From assembly GCA_964016885.1 (NCBI GenBank), contig OZ024759.1, positions 20,584,001-20,648,000 of the forward strand: a stretch of 64,000 nt of DNA, in the 5' to 3' direction. The position numbers were made by a program, and so were the translations under genes. Under the pieces are notes generated by a model. The model ran no database searches, was not told the DNA's origin, and saw nothing but the letters and a program-made list of their open reading frames with translations. This stretch comes from Eledone cirrhosa. Lineage: Eukaryota. Of the stretch, positions 883-60,779 are shown piece after piece; within the stretch, counting starts at the first letter, position 1; every line of letters starts with the position of its first letter.

Positions 883-1076
883 ACAAAGGAAGTGTGGTAA
901 GGAACCAGATGGACCATAATGCACCAGCGTACTCAATACTTAGGGTAGTGGAGTGGGAAATAGGAACAAGTATGACCCCGACGGCAGAGCTCAAGCCGTT
1001 TCGACGGCTATTTCTGGACTCGGAGTCCAGAAATAGCCGTCGAAACGGCTTGAGCTCTGCCGTCGGGGTCATACTT
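883..1076 (-). mobile_element. Penelope-like terminal relic with perfect palindrome (54-bp arms 968-1021 and 1023-1076) plus 3' tail
   Basis: Arms are exact reverse complements; tail has GTATTGAGTAC (929-939, minus); flanked by (TA)n; related fragment at 26357-26405. Confidence 0.6.
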
Positions 1077-6234: not shown

Positions 6235-6623
6235 GGAGGTGCATGGCTTAGTGGTTAGAGCATTGGCCTTGCAATCGAAAGGTTGTGAGTTCAATTCTCA
6301 GACTGGGTGATGTGTTGTTTCCTTGAGCACGACACTTTATTTCACATTGCTCCAGTTTACTCAGCTGTAGAAATGAGATGATAGGGACTGGGGTCCCTAT
6401 CATTCTACTGCAAAGTGGTCGTGGAGGTGCCACGGAAAAAAAGCACCCAGCACTCACTGTAAAGTAGATGTGTAAGTGCCACGGCAAAAAAGCACCCAGC
6501 AGTCACTGTAAATGAGGTTGGTGTTAGGAAGGGCATCCAGCTGTAGAAATCAAGCCAGAATCAGTTCCCGTCCCACCCTTGCAAGCAGGGAAAAAGCGGA
6601 CGTGAAAATGAAATGATGATGAT
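6235..6623 (+). mobile_element. SINE family A, short-tail subtype
   Basis: Head, core and internal hairpin; tail cccacccttgcaagcagggaaaaagcggacg followed by (GAT)n. Confidence 0.9.
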
Positions 6624-8960: not shown

Positions 8961-10047
8961 AGGCACATGGCTTAGTGGTTAGGCATTGGGCTTGCATTGC
9001 TCCAGTTTACTCAGCTGGAGAAATGAGATAATAGGACTGGGGTCCCTATCATTCCACTGCAAAGTGGTCGTGGAGGTGCCACGGCAAAAAAAGCACCCAG
9101 CCCACACTGTGATGTGGTCGTGGAGGTGCCACGGCAAAAAAAGCACCCAGCACTCACTGTGATGTGGACGTGTAGGCGCCACGGAAAAAAGCACCCAGCC
9201 CACACTGTGATGTGGACGTGTAGGCGCCACGGAAAAAAGCACCCAGCCCACACTGTGATGTGGACGTGTAGGCGCCACGGAAAAAAGCACCCAGCACTCA
9301 CTGTGATGTGGACGTGTAGGCGCCACGGAAAAAAGCACCCAGCACTCACTGTGATGTGGACGTGTAGGCGCCACGGAAAAAAAGCACCCAGCACTCACTG
9401 TGATGTGGACGTGTAGGCGCCACGGAAAAAAGCACCCAGCCCACACTGTGATGTGGACGTGTAGGCGCCACGGAAAAAAGCACCCAGCCCACACTGTGAT
9501 GTGGACGTGTAGGCGCCACGGAAAAAAGCACCCAGCCCACACTGTGATGTGGACGTGTAGGCGCCACGGAAAAAAGCACCCAGCACTCACTGTGATGTGG
9601 ACGTGTAGGCGCCACGGAAAAAAGCACCCAGCACTCACTGTGATGTGGACGTGTAGGCGCCACGGAAAAAAAGCACCCAGCACTCACTGTGATGTGGACG
9701 TGTAGGCGCCACGGAAAAAAGCACCCAGCACTCACTGTGATGTGGACGTGTAAGCGCCACGGAAAAAAAGCACCCAGCACTCACTGTGATGTGGACGTGT
9801 AGGCGCCACGGAAAAAAGCACCCAGCACTCACTGTGATGTGGACGTGTAGGCGCCACGGAAAAAAAGCACCCAGCACTCACTGTGATGTGGACGTGTAGG
9901 CGCCACGGAAAAAAGCACCCAGCACTCACTGTAAATGAGGTTCATGTTAGGAAGGGCATCCAGCTGTAGAAATCAAGCCAGAATCAGTTCCTGTCCCACT
10001 CTTGGAAGCAGGGAAAAGCGGACGTAAAATGATGATGATGATGATGA
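8959..10047 (+). mobile_element. SINE family A with internal 48-bp minisatellite expansion
   Basis: Internally deleted head, about 17-18 copies of ggaaaaaagcacccagcactcactgtgatgtggacgtgtaggcgccac (about 9082-9930), short tail. Confidence 0.9.
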
Positions 10048-10062
10048 TTATATATATTTATA

Positions 10063-10282
10063 TATAATTACAACAGTGACATAAACAGGTACTCAAGTTT
10101 CGTTGGGTTCTGGGCCCCAACTAAGTCAGCCTTTTTTTTTCTCATGACAGGCTTAATGAGTTGGGGCCCAGAACCCAACACAACTTAAGTACCTGTTTAT
10201 GTCACTGTGGTAATTATACTAAACTCGCCCTATGGACTGAGTGCTCATGCCCTTGGATATTTCTACCAAACTTTTACTACAG
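10063..10282 (+). mobile_element. Penelope-like inverted terminal repeat with two decayed hammerheads
   Basis: Arms about 10063-10131 and 10150-10218; cagg-core-gttggg/cccaac-GAAA-cttaag-TA-cctg can be rebuilt from the two arms; tail CTGAGTGCTC. Confidence 0.7.
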
Positions 10283-11804: not shown

Positions 11805-11962
11805 CCCAGTCCTATCATCTCATTTCTACAGCTCAGTAGACTGGAGCAATGTGAAATAAAGTATCTTGCTCAAGGAAACAACACATCACCCGGTCTGAGA
11901 ATTGAACTCACAGCCTTTCGATTGCAAGCCTAATGCTCTAACCACTAAGCCATGTGCCTTCA
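11805..11962 (-). mobile_element. SINE family A 5' half
   Basis: Head and core, ending at the internal hairpin. Confidence 0.85.
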
Positions 11963-13240: not shown

Positions 13241-13346
13241 ATATATAATATGTAGCATTCTGAGGTAATTTGGGAGGCTAACATATATGTATATATGTAG
13301 GTATATATATCGTCATCGCCGTTTTCTATAAATATTATGTATATAA

Positions 13347-13826
13347 ATAGAATTAGAATTTAGCTTCGAGCATTGCTGTATACAGATATGTATTGGAATT
13401 TAGTATTTCTAAAGAAATACAGCATGTTTATGAATAAAAGTTTAGGAAGCCATAGCTAAATGTTTATTTATAGACATAGTGTATTTCTTTAGAAATACGC
13501 AATTCCATTACATATCTACATACAGCTATACTTGAAGCTAAATTTTAATTCTATTCTAAGTTGACCCAACTTATACAGCTTCATATGGAAATGAGATTAA
13601 TCACCTCATTTACACAGATGACAAAACTATATTCTCGCCTGTTTTCAAAGTCCTACAGTTGCAAGAGCGGAAGGGATTCAGTTTGAAATGTATCGACAAT
13701 TGTCCCCCTTGCTTCTGCTTGACACCACCAGGTGGTGATAGTTGCCTGTCTTTTTGCATAGCTATGGCTTTCTAAATGTTTATTTATAAACATACTGTAT
13801 TTCTTTCGAAATACGAAATTCTAATA
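13347..13826 (+). mobile_element. Decayed copy of the retrozyme-like element (period about 316 bp, 5' inversion, HHR core deleted)
   Basis: 13557-13640 closely matches 60702-60790; direct repeat at 13457 and 13773; 13347-13457 is an inverted copy. Confidence 0.7.
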
Positions 13827-13848
13827 TATATATATATATATATATATA

Positions 13849-14053
13849 GGTAAGTTATTCCGGGTTGAATCGGAGGTAACCACAGTAAGGTACTCAATAC
13901 ATAGCAGAGTATAAAAGTTTTAATATAGATGGGATTCTACAGGACTAGAACTGTTTCATTCTTTAGAAATCATCAGGAATCTGGCCAGATTCCTGATGAT
14001 TTCTAAAGAATGAAACAGTTCTAGTCCTGTAGAATCCCATCTATATTAAAACT
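13849..14053 (-). mobile_element. Penelope-like terminus: perfect 138-bp palindrome (13916-14053) with a hammerhead-like core in each arm, plus tail
   Basis: CTGATGA-tttc taaa gaat-GAAA-cagttctag-TC at 13993-14026; tail GTATTGAGTAC; in (TA)n; same family as 52273-52472. Confidence 0.75.
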
Positions 14054-14444
14054 ATATATATATGAAATATACATATAAGAAGTTCTCCATCTCTTTTAAC
14101 CTTTGAAAATCCTGAACCTTGTAAAACCGGTAAAGTAATGTTACTGTAATGAAAACCTTCTTAAAGACTCCAATTATATTTTCAACTTCTTCATTTGTAT
14201 GTATGTATATGTATATATGTATATGTTCATTTGTATGTATATAAATGTATATATATCACCACCCCACACTCTCAAGCGTGAAACTAAAAACCATATCATT
14301 TGTACTGCCTCTCTGTTTTTTGTTCTCTGTTCATTTATTAAACTATATATATATATTTATATATATATAAGTTGAAAAAAATGAAAACGAAATTTCATTT
14401 CTCACTCTTAGTATGGCACTTACTTAAATGTAGGCAGATGGGTA

Positions 14445-16180: not shown

Positions 16181-16950
16181 TGGTTCATGATTGTAAGGCC
16201 TTGTGTTCGATTCCTACCAACACTTTGTGTCTTTGAACTAGACACTTTATTTCATGCTGATCCAGTCAATTCAACTGGAATAAATGTTTTATACCTGTAA
16301 TATAATGGGACTGACCTTATCACACATATTTGTTGCCATATTTCTAATGAAAGACATTAAGTATGATTTTGGAATAATTTTGAAAATAATTAAGAATTTG
16401 AATGCATTTAATATTATAATTATTCTTATGATTGTTGTTATTAAACCTGATCTCTGGTTTGTGAAGTGGGTAAGTCGATTAATTCGACCTCAGTGCATTA
16501 CTGGTACTTTATTTTATTGACCCCATAAGAATGAAGCGCAAAGCTAACTTTGGTTCATAATTGTAAGGCCTTGTGTTCGATTCCTACCAACACTTTGTGT
16601 CTTTGAACTAGACACTTTATTTCATGCTGATCCAGTCCACTCAACTGGAATAAATGTTTTGTACCTGTAATATAATGGGACTGACCTTATCACACACTGT
16701 TGTTGCCATATTTCTAATATTTCTAATGAAAGACATGGAGTATGATTTTGTCATAATTTTGAAAATAATCAAGAATTTGGAAGCATTTAATAATATAATT
16801 CTTCTTCTCGTTGTTGTTATTAACCTGGTGTCTGGTTTATACACAAGGCCAACAATTTTGTGAGGTGGGTAAGTTGATTAAATTGACCCCAGTGCATTAC
16901 TGGTACTTTATTTTATTGACCCCGTAAGGATCAAAGGCAAAGTTAACCTC
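16181..16950. repeat. Tandem duplication, period about 370 bp, of a composite SINE/MITE/SINE segment
   Basis: tggttcat(g/a)attgtaaggccttgtgttcgattcctacc begins at 16181 and again at 16551. Confidence 0.85.
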
Positions 16951-17179
16951 AGTGGAATCTGAACTCAGAATGGAAGGGGCTGTAACTATATGCCACAAAT
17001 CATGTTGTCCGACACTCGACCGTTACTGCCAATTGCTGGCATTGGTAGAACATCGAATGACATTCTTTGGGGCATATAGTTACGGCCATTTATATTTTGA
17101 GTTAAAATCCCATTGAGGTTTACTTTGACTTCCATCGTTACGGGGTCGATAGAATAAAGTACCAGTTAATTACTGGTGT

Positions 17180-17660
17180 TGGTATAATCAGGCAAACCCA
17201 GCCTGTATGAGACCCAGGGGTAGACCCAAGCAAACCCAGCCTGTATGAGACCCAGGGGTAGACCCAAGCAAACCCAGCCTGTATGAGACCCAGGGGTAGA
17301 CCCAAGCAAATCCAGCCTGTATGAGACCCAGGGGTAGACCCCAAATCAGTCAATTACTGGAGTCGGTATAATCAGACAAAACCAGCCTGAATGTGACCCA
17401 GGGGTAGACCCAAGCAAAACCAGCCTGTATGAGACCCAGGGGTAGACCCTGGAGTCGGTATAATCAGACAAAACCAGCCTGTATGAGACCCAGGGGTAGA
17501 CCCAAGCAAAACCAGCCTGTATGAGACCCAGGGGTAGACCCCGAATCAGTCAATTACTGGAGTCGGGATAATCAGACAAAACCAGCCTGAATGTGACCCA
17601 GGGGTAGACCCAAGCAAAACCAGCCTGTATGAGACCCAGAAGTAGACGCCCAAGCAACTA
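17180..17660 (+). repeat. 38-bp minisatellite with higher-order units
   Basis: Unit acccagcctgtatgagacccaggggtagacccaagcaa, interleaved with ggtataatcag from the adjacent SINE B end. Confidence 0.9.
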
Positions 17661-20827: not shown

Positions 20828-22069
20828 CCAAGATAATTTCATAGAATGTAACCAAATGAGGTTTATTTTTCATCATAGTTCCCAAGATAATTTCATAGAA
20901 TGTAACCAAATGAAGTTTATTTTTCAACATAGTTCCCAAGATAATTTCATAGAATGTAACCAAATGAAGTTTATTTTTCATCATAGTTCCCAAGATAATT
21001 TCATAGAATGTAACCAAATGAGGTTTATTTTTCATCATAGTTCCCAAGATAATTTCATAGAATGTAACCAAATGAGGTTTATTTTTCATCATAGTTCCCA
21101 AGATAATTTCATAGAATGTAACCAAATGAGGTTTATTTTTCAACATAGTTCTCAAGATAATTTCATAGAATGTAACCAAATGAGGTTTATTTTTCAACAT
21201 AGTTCCCAAGATAATTTCATAGACTGTAACCAAATGAGGTTTATTTTTCATCATAGTTCCCAAGATAATTTCATAGAATGTAACCAAATGAAGTTTATTT
21301 TTCAACATAGTTCCCAAGATAATTTCATAGAATGTAACCAAATGAAGTTTATTTTTCATCATAGTTCCCAAGATAATTTCATAGAATGTAACCAAATGAG
21401 GTTTATTTTTCAACATAGTTCCCAAGATAATTTCATAGAATGTAACCAAATGAGGTTTATTTTTCATCATAGTTCCCAAGATAATTTCATAGAATGTAAC
21501 CAAATGAAGTTTATTTTTCAACATAGTTCCCAAGATAATTTCATAGAATGTAACCAAATGAGGTTTATTTTTCATCATAGTTCCCAAGATAATTTCATAG
21601 AATGTAACCAAATGAAGTTTATTTTTCAACATAGTTCCCAAGATAATTTCATAGAATGTAACCAAATGAGGTTTATTTTTCATCATAGTTCCCAAGATAA
21701 TTTCATAGAATGTAACCAAATGAAGTTTATTTTTCATCATAGTTCCCAAGATAATTTCATAGAATGTGACCAAATGAGGTTTATTTTTCATCATAGTTCC
21801 CAAGATAATTTCATAGAATGTAACCAAATGAGGTTTATTTTTCAACATAGTTCCCAAGATAATTTCATAGAATGTAACCAAATGAGGTTTATTTTTCATC
21901 ATAGTTCCCAAGATAATTTCATAGAATGTAACCAAATGAGGTTTATTTTTCATCATAGTTCCCAAGATAATTTCATAGAATGTAACCAAATGTTTATTTT
22001 TCATCATAGTTCCCAAGATAATTTCATAGAATGTGACCAAATGAGATTTATTTTTCAACATAGTTCCCA
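20828..22069. repeat. 54-bp minisatellite, about 23 copies
   Basis: ccaagataat at 20828, 20882 and onward; 18-aa periodic ORFs on both strands. Confidence 0.97.
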
Positions 22070-26130: not shown

Positions 26131-26620
26131 GTATATATATATATGTGTGTGTGTATATTTATGTATATATTTATATATATATATATTTATGTATATATAT
26201 ATTTATATATATATATATGCGTGTGTCTATTCATATTTATACATGTGTATATGTATAAATATATGTATTTGATATGTATATACATATGAATGCGTGTCTG
26301 TGTGTATGTATACATACATGTGTATATTTATGTATCAATATATAGATATATATATAGGAACGAGTAGGACCCCGACGGCTGAGCTCAAGCCGTTTCGACG
26401 GCTAAAGTTGATATTCAAATAAATTAGTCAATTGCATAAGTACATGTATGTGTGTGCGTGCTTGCATATATATATATATTCATACATGAATATATAAACA
26501 TATATATACATACACACACACATATATATATATGTGTGTATGTGTATATATGTTTGTACTTATGCAATTGACTAATTTATTTGAATATGAACTTACATAC
26601 ATAAACACATACTGACACAT

Positions 26621-39386: not shown

Positions 39387-39721
39387 CAATGATATTAAAT
39401 AAATGGAAACTATATTTATAAAATCATATTTATTCTAATATATATATTTCAAGGGTACCAAAACAAAACTTTGGTACGCTTTCATCAGATAAAATACAAA
39501 GAGTGTTTTATAAATTTTGACATAGCCAAAGAGATCATACCTTATCAGTTGAATTTTCTTGGGTAGTACTCTTGAAATATATATAATAGAATAAATATGG
39601 TTTTATAAATATAGTTTCCATTTATTTAATATCATTGATATTTACTCCAGAAATCTATCAAGTGCTCTGAATCAGTTATAAACATTTATATTTGTTGAAT
39701 TTCCAACAAATTAAATATTCC

Positions 39722-39722
<1 letters not shown>
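39387..39722. mobile_element. Penelope-like inverted terminus with hammerhead (minus strand, about 39432-39495)
   Basis: Arms 39387-39453 and about 39571-39637; minus CTGATGA-aagcgtaccaaa/tttggtaccctt-GAAA-tatata-TA; same family as 52005-52150 and 53063-53373. Confidence 0.72.
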
Positions 39723-39752
<30 letters not shown>

Positions 39753-40595
39753 GGTTTAGCGTCCGTGTTCCACGCTTGCATGGGTTTGGACGGGGGTTTT
39801 CCCACTTGAGGCAAGAGTGGTTGTCTTGCTCGCATAGGACTGTCTGGCGGGTTTTCTACAGCTGGATGCCCTTCCTAACACCAACCACATTTACAGTGTG
39901 GGGCTGGGAGGTTTTTACCGTGTTGCCTACACGGCCACATTTACAGCGTGGACTGTGTGTTTTTTGTCGTGACACCTACACGATCTCATTTGTTTCGGCC
40001 TGGATGTTGTGGGACCAACATAACTTTACATTGAAAGGGGCGGTGTGGATGGGGTGGAGGTGGTGGGACGGGGGTGTGTTTTGATAGAGATGCCTACTGA
40101 CTGTAGTAGGTTTTTACTTTGTATTACTGAGTACCGCCAAAGGTCTCGGTCCAGTGACATTGTCTTGGAGAGGTGTAAGCGTGTGAGGTCGGAATTTATC
40201 ATGCCGTCCCAGGTTTTTCTGGGTCTGCCTACTCCGTGGCTACCGTCTATCTTTATTGCCCTGCACTTTGTTATACAGCTGTCGTCTTTCATGCGCATCA
40301 CGTGACCGTACCAACGTAGCCTTCTCTCGAGTAAACAACATCTGATCCCTCTTATTTCTAATTTTTTCCTTAGTTCGTTTATGCTTAGCCGTTCACGTAT
40401 ATTACTATTGCACATCCAGCGGAGCATGCAAGCTTCGTTCCTCTCTAGTCTGCGTATATCCTCTGCACACAATGCCCAGGTCTCACTGCCATGCAGCATT
40501 GCTGTTCGTATGCAGGCATCGTATAACCTGCCTTTCATTTTTAGGGAGAACCCTCTAGCGGCTAATAGTGGTATAAGCTCTCTGAACTTTTTCTT
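39723..40595 (-). mobile_element. RTE-clade LINE 3' fragment with 3' UTR
   Basis: KGRLYDACIRTAMLHGSETW...RRLRWYGHVMRM...GRPRKTW; UTR ends in (GAT)n. Confidence 0.93.
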
Positions 40596-41293: not shown

Positions 41294-41690
41294 ATTCGGT
41301 GGATAAGGATGCAGTTCACTTCAAGCACTCAACGTCTTATTACTTCTTTAAAATAAGGATGACGGAGTATATTTTTAAAGAGGAAAATGTGAAGTTGTAG
41401 ATGTTAGTCTTTTATTAATTGAGCTGTTATACATATTTCAATGATGATAGTTATCGTGATTTCTTCAGACATGAATGTTTTTGCTTTGGTTATCCATTCA
41501 CGAAGGGAGTGGACAGCTCAAGTAAAAACATACATTTTTTTAGTCTGCTCCTTTCCACCCATAATTGCCTTGAAAACTTTACCTTTTACTCAATTTTGCT
41601 GTCTGAACAAATCAAGATATCTATCATCATGGAAATATGTATAACGGCTCAATTAATATAAGACTAATATCTACAACTTCACATTTTCCT

Positions 41691-41694
<4 letters not shown>
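41294..41694 (-). mobile_element. Penelope-like inverted terminus with a hammerhead in each arm
   Basis: Arms 41377-41471 and 41600-41694; minus arm tgt-CTGAAGA...GAAA-tatgta-TA-acag, plus arm has CTGAACA; tail TTGAGTGCT (41324-41332, minus). Confidence 0.75.
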
Positions 41695-41746
<52 letters not shown>

Positions 41747-42519: not shown

Positions 42520-42590
42520 ATTGACGTACATGAGAGTCGAACCCACATCTTTGGTTATCCAGACCACTGTGCTACCATTACACCAACACA
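42520..42590 (-). mobile_element. tRNA-derived fragment (SINE head or pseudo-tRNA)
   Basis: Minus TGGTGTAATGG...GGTTCGACTC (A/B-box-like); no convincing cloverleaf. Confidence 0.5.
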
Positions 42591-42706
42591 TCACCCGTCT
42601 CTTTCCATTTAAATTAGAAGCTACATTCTTAGCAAGTATGACCTGTATGTATGTTTTGAAACAGCGAGACAAATCAGTTTTGCTTCTGAATGAAATAAGA
42701 CAGTGT

Positions 42707-51428: not shown

Positions 51429-51429
<1 letters not shown>

Positions 51430-51487
51430 TGTATTCTCTTCAAGCTATATATATATATATATATATATATATTGTATTCTCTTCAAG

Positions 51488-51532
<45 letters not shown>

Positions 51533-51825
51533 ATTCTCTTCAAGCTATATATATATATATATATATATTGTATTCTCTTCAAGCTATATATATAGATATA
51601 TAGATATATATATATTGTATTCTCTTCAAGCTATATATATATATATATTGTATTCTCTTCAAGCTATATATATAGATATATAGATATATATATATTGTAT
51701 GCTCTTCAAGCTATATATATATATATATAGATATAGATATATATTGTATCCTCTTCAACCTATATATCTATATATATATATATAGATATATAGATATATA
51801 GATTTATAGCTTGAAGAGAATACAA
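51429..51825. repeat. Eight 17-bp units (ttgtattctcttcaagc) spaced by variable (TA)n, plus one inverted copy
   Basis: Units at 51429, 51472, 51529, 51568, 51615, 51648, 51695, 51744; inverted copy at about 51809-51825. Confidence 0.92.
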
Positions 51826-51947
51826 GCTGAAACAACAGATCTGTGGTTGGACTTTTACCTCATTAATACAACCATGCTGTTTCCCATCATACATCAAGTA
51901 CTACTCTGATTTATGGTCTTCCTGGTCTTTGTATCACTCAAAATAAA

Positions 51948-52007
<60 letters not shown>

Positions 52008-52144
52008 TAGAAGTTGTATTTAATTTGCTGGAAGTCCGACAAACATAAATGTTTATAACTGATTTAGAGCACTCAACAAGTTACTGGAGTAAATATTTAA
52101 TGATATTAAATAAATGGAAACTATATTTATAAAACCATATTTAA

Positions 52145-52189
<45 letters not shown>

Positions 52190-52193
52190 TAAA

Positions 52194-52234
52194 CCGAGCT
52201 GATGATCCAACTAAGGTGAAACAATTGTTCTCAG
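52194..52234 (+). ncRNA. Minimal hammerhead ribozyme (mirror copy at 52735-52775, minus)
   Basis: ccgag-CTGATGA-tcc aactaa ggt-GAAA-caattg-TT-ctcag. Confidence 0.75.
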
Positions 52235-52272
52235 AAATAGTGAATTAACTGTTGTGGGACTACTTATATATA

Positions 52273-52472
52273 TATATGTATATATTTATTGTATAGAAGG
52301 AGCTTCTACAGGACTAGTACTGTTTCATTCAGATGAAATCTTCAGGATAGTAGAGTGAATGAAACAGTACTAGTCCTGTAGAAGCTCCTTCTATACAATA
52401 AATATATTTTACTCTGCCATGTATTGAGTACCTTACTTACTGTGGTTATCCCCGACTCAACCCGGACCTACG
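52273..52472 (+). mobile_element. Penelope-like inverted terminus (family of 13849-14053); mirror copy at 52497-52696
   Basis: Internal inverted repeat; CTGAAGA-tttc atct gaat-GAAA-cagtactag-TC (52624-52657 in the mirror copy); tail GTATTGAGTAC. Confidence 0.75.
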
Positions 52473-52779
52473 TATATATATATATATATATATATACGTA
52501 GGTCCGGGTTGAGTCGGGGATAACCACAGTAAGTAAGGTACTCAATACATGGCAGAGTAAAATATATTTATTGTATAGAAGGAGCTTCTACAGGACTAGT
52601 ACTGTTTCATTCACTCTACTATCCTGAAGATTTCATCTGAATGAAACAGTACTAGTCCTGTAGAAGCTCCTTCTATACAATAAATATATACATATATATA
52701 TATAAGTAGTCCCACAACAGTTAATTCACTATTTCTGAGAACAATTGTTTCACCTTAGTTGGATCATCAGCTCGGTTTA

Positions 52780-52846
<67 letters not shown>

Positions 52847-52985
52847 TTAAATATGGTTTTATAAATATAGTTTCCATTTATTTAATATCATTAAATATTT
52901 ACTCCAGTAACTTGTTGAGTGCTCTAAATCAGTTATAAACATTTATGTTTGTCGGACTTCCAGCAAATTAAATACAACTTCTACT

Positions 52986-53040
<55 letters not shown>

Positions 53041-53062
53041 TTTGATATTAAATAAATAAATT

Positions 53063-53373
53063 TGATATTAAATAAATGGAAACTATATTTATAAAACCAT
53101 ATTTTATTTAATTATATATATTTCAAGGGCAACCAAGACACCATTGGTGCGCTCTCATCAGATAAAATACAAAGTTTGTTTTAAAAATAGAGACGTACCC
53201 ATGAAATTCATACCGATAAAGTAGGATTTTCATGGGTACATCACTATTTATGAAACAAACTTTGTATTTTATCTGATGAAAGCGCACCAATGTTGTCTTG
53301 GTTGCCCTTGAAATATATATAATTAAATTAAATATGGTTTTATAAATATAGTTTCCATTTATTTAATATCATT
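53063..53373. mobile_element. ~310-bp imperfect palindrome with a hammerhead in each arm (plus strand 53266-53328)
   Basis: attttat-CTGATGA-aagcgcaccaa/ttggttgccctt-GAAA-tatata-TA-attaaat. Confidence 0.75.
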
Positions 53374-53475
53374 GTATATATATATATATATATACATATA
53401 TAAGTAGTTCCACAACAGTTAATTCACCTTAGTTGGATCATCAGCTCGGTTTAAGAAATATATATATATATATAT

Positions 53476-53616
53476 AGGAAGGGCATCCAACTGTAGAAAA
53501 CCCGCCAGACAGTCCTATGCGAGCAAGACAACCACTCTTGCCTCAAGTGGGAAAACCCCCGTCCAAACCCATGCAAGCGTGGAACACTGACGCTAAACCT
53601 GATGATGATGATGATG
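53476..53616 (+). mobile_element. RTE 3' UTR end (family of 39723-40595)
   Basis: Closely matches the reverse complement of 39723-39876. Confidence 0.88.
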
Positions 53617-54870
53617 ATATATATATATATTCCAATGCTCTAACAACTAAGCCATATGCCTATATATATATATATATATTCATTCTATGAAGTGCGCTAG
53701 CTGCCGAAGTATATGATAAAGTTATATCTATGTAAATACAGATTGCATAACCAAGACTGCACTAATGTTTATAGTTGTATACACATACCTAATATGTAGG
53801 CATGCCTTAGTGGTTAGAGCTCTATCTCACATAATATCTCACATAATATCGAATCTATGAGATTTTGAAAATATTTATTTTGAGAACAATACCTTAACAT
53901 CAGTTTGAGCAACCAGTTACAGCCAGTTTCAACAGAAAGGGGTAGAGAATTCTGGCCGGTTTTGGCTGGTTTGAACATTAAAGGGATAAACATCTTTATC
54001 AATATATATGACAAACTCTCTAGTGTTGGTGATCTACATGATAAATTCACCCCATACTTGTTGTAATGTGGCTGGTGGTAGGAAGCTTACCAAGCAATGG
54101 GTTGAGAGGTCCCCTCGGTTGTGTCAAAGACATAACAATCTCTCCTGTGCACTCGGTAGAACACGAAACCTAGGTAAGCAATATGCTGACCCCTTCCGGG
54201 GCCTGTACGGGATATCAGTATACCAGCTTCAGTACTGATTTGGTTTATGTAAACCTGTACATATGTTGAGTTCTTGGCCAGGATGGGGAAAGTACCGGTG
54301 GGAGAGGGAAAGAGAGGGAGAAGAGATAGAGATGGGGGAGAGAGAGAGGGCCAGATAGAGATGGGGGAGAGAGAGAGGGCCAGGAAGAGATAGAGATGGG
54401 GGAGAGAGAGAGAGGGACAGGAAGAGATGGAGGGAGGGATTGAGAGAGAGAGAGAGAGAGAGTTATACAAGAAATGAGGGAGAAAAATGGGGTGTCGAGA
54501 GAATGAGTACTATATCTATGTATCTCTATTGAGAGCAATCGATTAATAAAGCTCTGACTGCTGCTGCTATTGCTGCTGTTGCTTCTGTTGCTTCTGTTGC
54601 TGCTGCTACTGCTGCTGTTGCTGTTATTACTGTGGCTGCTTCTGTTGTTGGCTGTGATGAAAGCCTAAATTAATTGTGACACAGGGCAAAACATTATATC
54701 AAGACTAAATTATTAAGATATCAGAGTGTCTTACCATTCCAAGAACTCTGTACTTCAGAGAAACTCAGCTTAACCTCTATATGTATATGCATGTGTCTGT
54801 GGGTATATATATATATGTGTGTATATATATGCATGTATGTTATGTGGATGTGTGTATATATATATGCATG

Positions 54871-54959
<89 letters not shown>

Positions 54960-55062
54960 CACAGAAGGTTATCAGTTATTCTGTTTGTGTGTGTGTATAT
55001 ATATGTATATATGTGTGCATATAAGTATGTGTGTATATATATATATGTATGTATGTGTATAT

Positions 55063-55108
<46 letters not shown>

Positions 55109-55149
55109 ATATACACATACATACATATATATACACACATACCTCTATG

Positions 55150-55195
<46 letters not shown>

Positions 55196-55337
55196 ATATA
55201 CACATACATATATATATACACACACACACACACATATATATATATACATCAGTACACTACCTGATTGCATTCCAAACTATATACCTGTGTAACACGCACT
55301 TGCACAATTCATATCAATATATATTTCAATGTACTTT

Positions 55338-60195: not shown

Positions 60196-60730
60196 AAAAC
60201 TCCTTCAGGTACCTAGAAAGTTCCCTGGGCATGGTGCTTTTGTGGAAGACCATGCATACTGCTTTCCCTTCTCCATGCCGCTGATGTTGTCCAAGTGAAA
60301 AGCAAAGACTGAAATAACTTGGCATCAGTAATGTCACAACTCATTTCTATAGCTTAAACTGGAACCGATCTGAAAATCAAACTCACAACCTCTTCATATT
60401 GTGAAACCAACTCTCTAACCACTAAGCCACATGCCTTCACTGTGTGTGTGTATGCGTATCATCATCATCATTGTTTTACGTCCGTTCTTCCACGCTAGCA
60501 TGGGTTAAACGGGTTGTCCTGTTGTAAATGAGGTGATTAATCTCATTTGCATATGAAGCTGCATAAGTTGGCTCAACTTATAATAAAAAAGAAATAGTAT
60601 TTCGCTTCAAGCATAGCTTTATACAATTTTTTTGAGATACAAAATATTTATACAAATTGTATAAAGCTATGCTTGAAGCGAAATCCTATTTCTTTTTTAT
60701 TATAAGTTGAGCCAACTTATGCAGCTTCAT

Positions 60731-60779
60731 ATGCAAATGAGATTAATCACCTCATTTACACAGATGAGAAAAGTATATA
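60731..60779 (+). promoter_or_regulatory. Octamer ATGCAAAT, then TCACC (PSE-like) and TATATA: possible snRNA-type promoter
   Basis: Octamer 60731-60738, tcacc 60747, TATATA 60774-60779; spacing is not canonical and the region also forms hairpins. Confidence 0.35.

What the first reader, a model, noticed from the sequence alone, without database searches (positions are those of the whole stretch)
51945..53043. 1.1-kb nested palindrome centred exactly on (TA)12, duplicating three ribozyme-element relics
By eye the arms are exact mirrors except for the (TA)n tracts. Each arm holds a tail of the 39387 family, the 52194 HHR, and an element that is itself an inverted repeat. Another ~310-bp HHR palindrome follows at once (53063-53373). 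Inference: fold-back priming on self-complementary (TA)n, possibly during Penelope-type integration, copied about 500 bp of flank very recently. A long-read fold-back artefact is the alternative.
Basis: partly seen in the sequence, partly recalled or inferred. Interest (0 to 1): 0.7.

Follow-up and report, generated by a model that had tools for sequence, protein, structure and literature searches.

The report
Mirror duplication primed at TA repeat
A 1.1-kb stretch of an animal genome reads as two exact mirror halves around a run of TA repeats, likely because DNA synthesis turned round in that self-complementary run and copied back about 540 bases of old ribozyme-element remnants; this is a known kind of copying accident, and no read has yet confirmed it.

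Summary
Observation confirmed. The arms (51945-52484, 52485-53043) match at 423 of 423 bases outside the TA tracts, around (TA)12. Each arm holds remnants of three multi-copy hammerhead-type families. The right arm is the new copy: it ends with 6 bases of mirrored flank, rejoins downstream DNA at a look-alike TA edge, and an 18-base tandem duplication spans the joint.

They fit an older, smaller event of the same type (3 of 116 differences against 0 of 423, p about 0.01).

Best reading (0.68): a DNA template switch primed in the TA tract after the Penelope-type relics were in place, matching the published 3-2-1-4 class and fold-back inversions. Copying during Penelope integration is not supported, though a Penelope cut may have started it. 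Public contigs could not test the joints, so artefact stays at about 0.12. The scan noted Penelope fold-backs and larger fold-back palindromes elsewhere in this genome before; three look-ups found no TA-centred case. Ordinary mechanism, clear example.

The parts
51945..52484 (+). Left arm; inferred original (template) copy, continuous with the upstream flank
52485..53043 (-). Right arm; inferred new inverted copy
   Evidence: 423 of 423 non-TA bases match the left arm; ends in 6 bases mirrored from the upstream flank
52473..52496 (.). (TA)12, centre of symmetry and inferred priming site
51945..51950 (+). 6 flank bases mirrored at 53038-53043; marks where the backward copy stopped
   Evidence: the 7-mer follows a TA tract at 2 of 766 tract ends in the window, both at this locus
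52006..52150 (-). Module a: tail-bearing 3' part of family A (39387 family), beginning at the TA run that forms helix III and the predicted cut site of its hammerhead; mirrored at 52841-52985
   Evidence: 88% to 39577-39717; multi-copy in public contigs; pairing by eye
52188..52264 (+). Module b: family B fragment with a minimal type I hammerhead motif (core 52199-52221, palindromic loop, predicted cut after 52229); mirrored at 52705-52781
   Evidence: 448-467 contigs laid per run in X1-X3; most depth has G at 52233, which restores a helix I pair
52280..52472 (+). Module c: family C head-to-head fold-back stump (52-bp arms, 24-bp spacer, hammerhead core on the short arm, 65-bp tail ending at the central TA); mirrored at 52497-52689
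   Evidence: same long end as the 13829 relative; multi-copy
53038..53077 (+). Return junction: TA tract plus mirrored flank joined about 3 bases inside a family A short end; 18-bp tandem duplication (53040-53057, 53060-53077) spans the joint
53063..53374 (.). Family A head-to-head palindrome, hammerhead core on each arm (53121-53161 minus, 53273-53313 plus), no tail on either end
   Evidence: 9 differences in 151, 6 of them in the 32 bases nearest the centre
53378..53476 (-). Third copy of module b with its TA flanks: same two ends, same single-base interruption in the TA flank, 24-bp deletion between 5-bp direct repeats, 2 substitutions; inferred source of the older duplication
52101..52159 (+). 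59 bp repeated directly at 53063-53121 (1 difference) and inverted at 53313-53371 (0 differences)

Best explanation
This is a local inverted duplication: the right arm is likely a DNA-templated copy of the left, made when a 3' end lying in the self-complementary TA tract likely re-annealed in reverse, was extended about 540 bases back through three already inserted ribozyme-element remnants, and likely rejoined the downstream DNA through another TA edge. Shown: the symmetry, the centre, the 6-base overshoot into flank, the look-alike TA edge and the 18-base duplication at the joint. Inferred steps: (1) a stall or break in the TA tract between the tail of element C and the short end of element A; TA runs form cruciforms and break, and a Penelope endonuclease cut is another candidate; (2) reverse priming on the same strand or on the sister strand, which the sequence cannot tell apart; for 540 bases I lean to a stalled or broken fork, because no long hairpin must then be unwound; (3) return by TA microhomology with loss of about 3 bases; (4) later slippage of the TA tracts. 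An older event of the same type is inferred beside it: a break at the TA run inside element A's hammerhead, fold-back on A's own inverted arm, about 165 bases copied (59 bp of A, its short end, module b), and rejoining through TA. Element C then inserted into the copied TA tract. No function is proposed; it is likely a young, unstable neutral mutation.
For: 423 of 423 identity with a TA centre. The copy crosses three unrelated families and ends in mirrored flank found at no other of 766 tract ends, so it formed in place. The return joint pairs a TA edge with a similar TA edge and carries a short duplication; annealing of nascent DNA at microhomologies and templated insertions are described for snap-back repair (PMC5728401, passages) and human fold-backs (PMC3907307, passages). 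The layout equals switch order 3-2-1-4 of the four-point model (PMC5453318, passages). TA repeats are break sites repaired by microhomology joining in human cancer ecDNA (PMC13645644, passages). One older event explains four otherwise separate oddities: module a cut at its TA run, the third b copy with the same ends, the tail-less A palindrome, and the 59-bp duplication. Identity of two independent A copies over 59 bp has a chance near 0.0006 at the 88% seen for the one other copy compared. The ages differ: 3 of 116 against 0 of 423, Fisher p = 0.0098.
Against: No empty site, second haplotype or spanning read was available, so the history is a parsimony reconstruction from one sequence. 540 bases is longer than the longest human short-range switch reported (318 bp; 10.1101/2021.11.26.470150, passages) and far above usual snap-back insertions (mostly under 15 bp). 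The window shows no clear excess of TA-centred mirrors: 2 of 397 tracts at 20 bases or more, against a shuffled mean of 0.37 and maximum of 3. The 6 differences in 32 bases near the centre of the A palindrome are not explained by the model. Arm identity is a poor clock, because inverted repeats can be homogenised (own knowledge; 13916-14053 is also perfect).
Confidence: 0.68

Rival explanations
1. Penelope-type reverse transcriptase made the right arm: a read-through RNA ending at C's tail self-primed on its UA end or was primed at C's fixed long end, and the cDNA went into the neighbouring TA tract, or the copy was made while C was integrating.
For: The fold lies exactly at C's long end, the same end as in the 13829 relative. 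C's own arms are identical, 52 of 52, so C may be as young as the palindrome. Self-priming on a sense template is predicted to give tail-to-tail repeats, and read-through self-priming with template jumps has been proposed (PMC3846280, passages). A purified Penelope protein cuts and extends both strands of AT-rich DNA (PMC11167929, parts 1-2 of 4).
Against: The copy runs through C's internal joint, so C was already joined on the left. An RNA copy would have to land in the one TA tract next to its source. Native fold-backs here are head-to-head (one search says the same for a rotifer). The inferred older event and the small mirrors at 51429-51825 and 55038-55133 have no element tail at the fold as far as the window self-comparisons show.
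Confidence: 0.15
2. Sequencing or assembly artefact: a fold-back read, an amplification chimera, or a mis-join among TA tracts.
For: The arms are identical outside the tracts. A spacer-less palindrome with 334-bp perfect arms should be unstable in vivo (own knowledge). The platform is unknown. No contig of runs X1-X4 spans a joint, and the tool skipped the TA tracts.
Against: A fold-back read is symmetric about its midpoint and does not return to new sequence; such reads were virtually absent from HiFi data and about 0.6% of nanopore genomic reads (PMC12870357, passages). Here the sequence returns through a joint with new duplicated bases, and one tract differs by 22 bases between the arms. 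Diverged local copies show that the locus rearranges in vivo.
Confidence: 0.12
3. A composite fold-back transposon with 540-bp inverted arms that moved here as a unit.
For: Long mirror arms built of repeats, flanked by TA tracts.
Against: The right arm ends in a mirror of this locus's own flank. Family B normally has other sequence on both sides (loose ends). Modules a and b match copies lying just downstream, with the same ends. No target-site duplication is evident.
Confidence: 0.02

Closest known systems
Short-range template-switch mutation, type 3-2-1-4 / 1-4-3-2 (Loytynoja and Goldman 2017, PMC5453318; Loytynoja preprint 10.1101/2021.11.26.470150; passages read)
   Same: One reverse-copied fragment between two switch points creates a new inverted repeat beside its source. 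Both inferred events fit this order. The preprint notes template switching in AT-containing tandem repeats.
   Different: Human events average about 12 bp (longest 318 bp) and low-complexity loci were filtered out; here about 540 and 165 bases, switch points in TA tracts, and no ancestral allele for a formal test.
Fold-back inverted duplications (human, PMC3907307, passages; yeast, PMC7467729, abstract and section 13)
   Same: Intra-strand pairing at short inverted sequence, fill-in synthesis, resolution by a second homology-mediated joint, templated insertions at joints.
   Different: Those are kb to Mb events with terminal deletion or translocation and, in humans, a spacer of 766 bp or more; this is interstitial, 0.5 kb, spacer-less, with about 3 bases lost.
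[quoted passage not shown]
   Same: Hairpin priming, including on TA/AT, then annealing across the break; TA repeats as break sites.
   Different: Usual insertions are under 15 bp; no enzyme was tested here; the TA study concerns cancer ecDNA and found no raised TA breakage on the linear amplicon.
Penelope-like element insertions with inverted pseudo-LTR, tail and minimal hammerhead (PMC8557442, PMC4209133, PMC3846280 passages; PMC11167929 parts 1-2 of 4)
   Same: Modules a, b, c and the 53063 palindrome show the layout: head-to-head arms, one longer by a tail, TA targets, type I hammerhead with a short palindromic helix III.
   Different: They are passengers. The outer palindrome is tail-to-tail and spans three families plus flank. 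No reverse transcriptase gene was linked to them here.

Membership tests
Template-switch inverted duplication (3-2-1-4) | Inserted fragment is the reverse complement of adjacent upstream sequence | tested here: met
   423 of 423
Template-switch inverted duplication (3-2-1-4) | Return to the forward strand at or just downstream of the first switch | tested here: inconclusive
   Joint at 53043 enters a family A short end about 3 bases in; that this end adjoined the central tract before is inferred from the layout at 53372-53402
Template-switch inverted duplication (3-2-1-4) | Comparison with the ancestral allele explains all differences by two switches | not testable with these tools
   No genome held; no spanning contig
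Fold-back inverted duplication (human/yeast) | Short inverted homology at the fold | tested here: met
   (TA)12 is self-complementary
Fold-back inverted duplication (human/yeast) | Single-copy spacer and terminal deletion, translocation or dicentric intermediate | tested here: not met
   No spacer; downstream sequence continues locally. Works like it; not filed as a member.
Penelope-like insertion (outer palindrome) | Head-to-head arms of one element, tails outward, unequal ends | tested here: not met
   Tail-to-tail, three families, equal arms
Penelope-like relic (modules a, b, c) | Type I hammerhead core with short helix III | tested here: inconclusive
   Core motifs present and helices pair by eye; family B majority restores helix I; Rfam gave no hammerhead hit; free folding did not give the hammerhead fold for b, c or a; helix III of c is longer than the minimal type
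Penelope-like relic (modules a, b, c) | Head-to-head arms with one tail, inserted in TA | tested here: met
   Family C at 52280-52472 and 13829-14083; family A at 39387-39732. Not seen for b, a single-arm fragment.
Penelope-like relic (modules a, b, c) | Link to a reverse transcriptase / GIY-YIG coding partner | not tested
   No genome held; no ORF of 90 aa or more overlaps 51945-53476
Animal non-LTR retrozyme | Tandem units, at least two consecutive complete hammerheads | tested here: not met
   No tandem hammerhead unit at the locus; definition from 10.64898/2026.07.22.740005, part 1 of 5
Long-read fold-back artefact | Symmetry about the read midpoint, no return to new sequence | tested here: inconclusive
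   The assembled sequence returns to new sequence, but raw reads were not available

The most novel reading that the evidence does not exclude
TA microsatellites in this genome act as recurrent germline break-and-self-prime sites, cut by Penelope endonucleases that fail to insert. Each event writes a mirror of the neighbouring DNA (17, about 31, about 165 and about 540 bases within 4 kb here), shuffling hammerhead modules of different families into new composites and creating long perfect hairpins de novo, as substrates for RNA editing and small-RNA pathways.
Probability: 0.2. Interest if true: 0.6.

Novelty: new member of a known kind. Interest (0 to 1): 0.3.

Why it matters
On its own it is a neutral-looking copying accident of a known class. 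Its value is as an unusually legible case: two successive reverse-copy events with their switch points in TA runs, a sequence class that the human template-switch survey filtered out. If such mirrors prove common genome-wide and enriched at Penelope targets, that would link transposon endonuclease cuts to de novo palindrome formation in a germline. It would also give a source of long double-stranded RNA in an animal group known for heavy RNA editing (octopus-like identity from recall and from earlier scan notes; editing from own knowledge). One window does not show that.

Tried and rejected
No whole genome is held, so no genome-wide count and no empty-site search were possible. Sequencing-run search: 23 runs listed, best share 0.40, no RNA holder listed. 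Contigs of X1-X4 laid on 51800-53700: the TA tracts and module b were skipped, no piece spans the stretch, and depth is swamped by family copies, so no verdict on the joints. Module b laid alone: family status shown, but neither the 24-bp deletion form nor an allele-specific depth appeared, so the planned 2:1 depth test failed. Rfam: no hammerhead model hit; the microRNA-model hits reflect the hairpin only and are below gathering. Window-wide excess of TA-centred mirrors: not shown (2 of 397 at 20 bases or more, control mean 0.37, maximum 3; 7 of 397 at 15 or more, control mean 2.0, maximum 6.2, mostly TA-rich flanks). Of 34 complex-arm inverted matches listed, only 52151 and 55038 are centred on pure TA. 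26411-26588 was considered and rejected as a parallel case, since it adjoins a relative of the 968-1076 element. Two independent tail-to-tail insertions of C were rejected because a, b and flank are mirrored too. The b-copy counts printed were offset errors in my scripts and are discarded; one search is the correct count. Earlier-findings look-ups by nearby place, by sequence and by two word sets returned nothing. Literature searches listed no paper on TA-centred germline palindromes in an invertebrate; I saw listings only for most hits and read no supplements.

Full report
Setting. The window is AT-rich animal DNA filled with microsatellites and short repeats. Earlier scan notes call this genome octopus or octopus-like, which fits my recall of its repeats; I did not test it. 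No whole genome is held. No ORF of 90 aa or more overlaps the locus.

Observation. The centre is 52484/52485 within (TA)12, and perfect complementarity extends 334 bp each way. Outside the TA tracts the arms match at 423 of 423 bases, a 95% upper bound of 0.7% divergence. Tract lengths are 55/52, 37/59 and 13/13, and the outer right tract has a one-base phase break.

Cargo. Module a (52006-52150, minus strand) is the tail-bearing end of the 39387 family, 88% identical. It begins at the TA run that follows the family's hammerhead core; by eye that run is helix III and the cut site. Module b (52188-52264) is a minimal type I hammerhead motif with a palindromic loop, as described for Penelope-like elements (PMC4209133, passages). 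Module c (52280-52472) is a head-to-head stump with 52-bp arms and a 65-bp tail, 73% like 13829-14083 and ending at the same long end. All three are multi-copy in public contigs. Summed depth in run X1 is about 300,000 over a and 270,000 over c, against 13 at 51800-51863; b draws 448-467 contigs per run in X1-X3. The tool warns that summed depth is no copy number. Most family B depth has G at 52233, restoring a helix I pair that this copy lacks. Rfam named no hammerhead, and free folding did not return the fold, so these calls rest on motif and pairing.

Which arm is new. Beyond the outer TA tract the right arm carries 6 more bases that mirror the upstream flank. That 7-mer follows a TA tract at 2 of 766 tract ends in the window, both at this locus. 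So the right arm was copied from the left, in place. It then joins family A sequence about 3 bases inside A's usual short end. The arm's end (TA run plus TTCATT) resembles that short end (TA run plus TACAAT), and an 18-base tandem duplication with a 20-base period covers the joint. These are marks described for synthesis-dependent joining (PMC5728401, passages; PMC3907307, passages).

An older event. A third b copy lies at 53378-53476. It has the same two ends, the same single G interrupting its TA flank, a 24-bp deletion between 5-bp direct repeats and 2 substitutions in 57 bases. Family B normally continues on both sides (loose ends), so shared ends mean a local copy. Also, 59 bp of module a equal the right arm of the next palindrome at 59 of 59 and its left arm at 58 of 59, and that palindrome has no tail at either end. 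One inferred event accounts for all of this. The ancestor was flank, a normal A insertion with its tail on the left, TA, b, TA. A break at the TA run inside A's left arm let the right-hand end fold on A's own inverted arm, copy about 165 bases (59 bp, short end, TA, b) and rejoin through TA. Element C later inserted into the copied TA tract, just after the G. The recent event then happened in the TA tract between C's tail and A's copied short end. Pairs from the first event differ at 3 of 116 sites, those from the second at 0 of 423 (Fisher p = 0.0098). This is a parsimony reconstruction from one sequence. It does not explain why 6 of the 9 differences in the A palindrome fall in the 32 bases by its centre.

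Mechanism. Both events fit switch order 3-2-1-4 or its mirror in the four-point template-switch model, which made up 31% of human-chimp events (PMC5453318, passages). That paper argues that short switches are inter-strand. Human events reach 318 bp at most, and low-complexity loci were removed (10.1101/2021.11.26.470150, passages). TA repeats form cruciforms, break, and are repaired through microhomology in cancer ecDNA (PMC13645644, passages). Yeast fold-backs form through single-strand hairpins and are resolved by a second homology-mediated joint (PMC7467729, abstract and section 13). I put DNA-templated reverse copying primed in the TA tract at 0.68. Same-strand and sister-strand routes cannot be told apart here.

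Penelope role. The fold sits at C's long end, a Penelope protein cuts both strands of AT-rich DNA in vitro (PMC11167929, parts 1-2 of 4), and tail-to-tail products of RNA self-priming have been predicted (PMC3846280, passages). Against this, the copy passes through C's own internal joint, so C was already attached. Native insertions here are head-to-head, in line with published layouts (PMC8557442, passages) and with earlier scan notes on other DNA of this genome. An RNA copy would need to land beside its source. I give a reverse-transcriptase origin 0.15. An endonuclease cut as trigger remains open within the best reading.

Artefact. Fold-back reads are symmetric about their midpoint, were virtually absent from HiFi data and made about 0.6% of nanopore genomic reads (PMC12870357, passages). 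This sequence returns to new DNA through a joint with duplicated bases, and one tract differs by 22 bases between arms. But both read-level tests failed to reach the joints, and runs X1-X3 are one sample that may be the assembly's source. I leave 0.12.

How general. Two small mirrors lie close by: eight tandem copies of a 17-mer at 51429-51760 that is the reverse complement of 51809-51825 across a TA-rich run, and a 48-bp-arm palindrome on (TA)17 at 55038-55133 with low-complexity arms. Window-wide, TA-centred mirrors are not clearly above the shuffled control. Earlier scan notes describe 38-kb and 33.5-kb fold-back palindromes in this genome, unconfirmed by reads; I did not test them. A 2026 repeat annotation of Octopus vulgaris lists recently active Penelope families, and the words searched gave no passage on hammerheads or such mirrors (PMC13282606, passages). 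Nine literature searches listed no paper on TA-centred germline palindromes in invertebrates. The library lacks most subscription papers and I read no supplements.

Verdict. Real as written in the assembly, probably real in the animal, and a new member of a known class of local inverted duplication. The ribozyme relics are passengers. Interest 0.3. The bolder reading, a recurrent TA- and endonuclease-driven source of palindromes and module shuffling, has probability 0.2 and interest 0.6.

Noticed in passing
window 51429-51825: Eight tandem copies of a 17-mer separated by TA tracts; the unit is the reverse complement of the flank at 51809-51825, and the two copies nearest the template are the most diverged. 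Looks like a small TA-primed fold-back that was then amplified.
   Followed up: partly
window 55038-55210: Perfect 48-bp-arm palindrome centred on (TA)17, 31 bases beyond the tract, low-complexity arms; the right-hand unit is repeated once more downstream.
   Followed up: partly
window 13829-14083: Family C relative with a perfect, spacer-less 69-bp-arm fold-back and two hammerhead cores.
   Followed up: partly
window 53475-53618 and 39734-39877: Two copies of a very abundant repeat, 98.6% identical, each beside a family A element, while other window copies aligned over this length are 70-74% alike; contigs in X1-X3 also join this repeat to a family A end.
   Followed up: partly
window 968-1076 and 26360-26588: A 54-bp-arm palindrome with a 1-base spacer shares sequence with 26360-26410, which adjoins 34-bp perfect inverted arms around a 110-bp microsatellite spacer.
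   Followed up: partly
window 60523-60760, 41368-41703, 13346-13555, 16875-17190, 10063-10218: Further short fold-back elements, 73-94% self-complementary.
   Followed up: no
window 53313-53321 and 39437-39447: The family A hammerhead has a TA run as its helix III loop, so each copy seeds a new TA target inside itself.
   Followed up: partly
window 9064-9932, 20828-22069, 17192-17657: Homogeneous minisatellites of 48 bp (17.9 copies) and 54 bp (23.1 copies), and a 38/92/108-bp composite array.
   Followed up: no
window 6242-6305, 11895-11952, 42522-42592: tRNA-like Rfam hits; the first two look like heads of a tRNA-derived short repeat.
   Followed up: no
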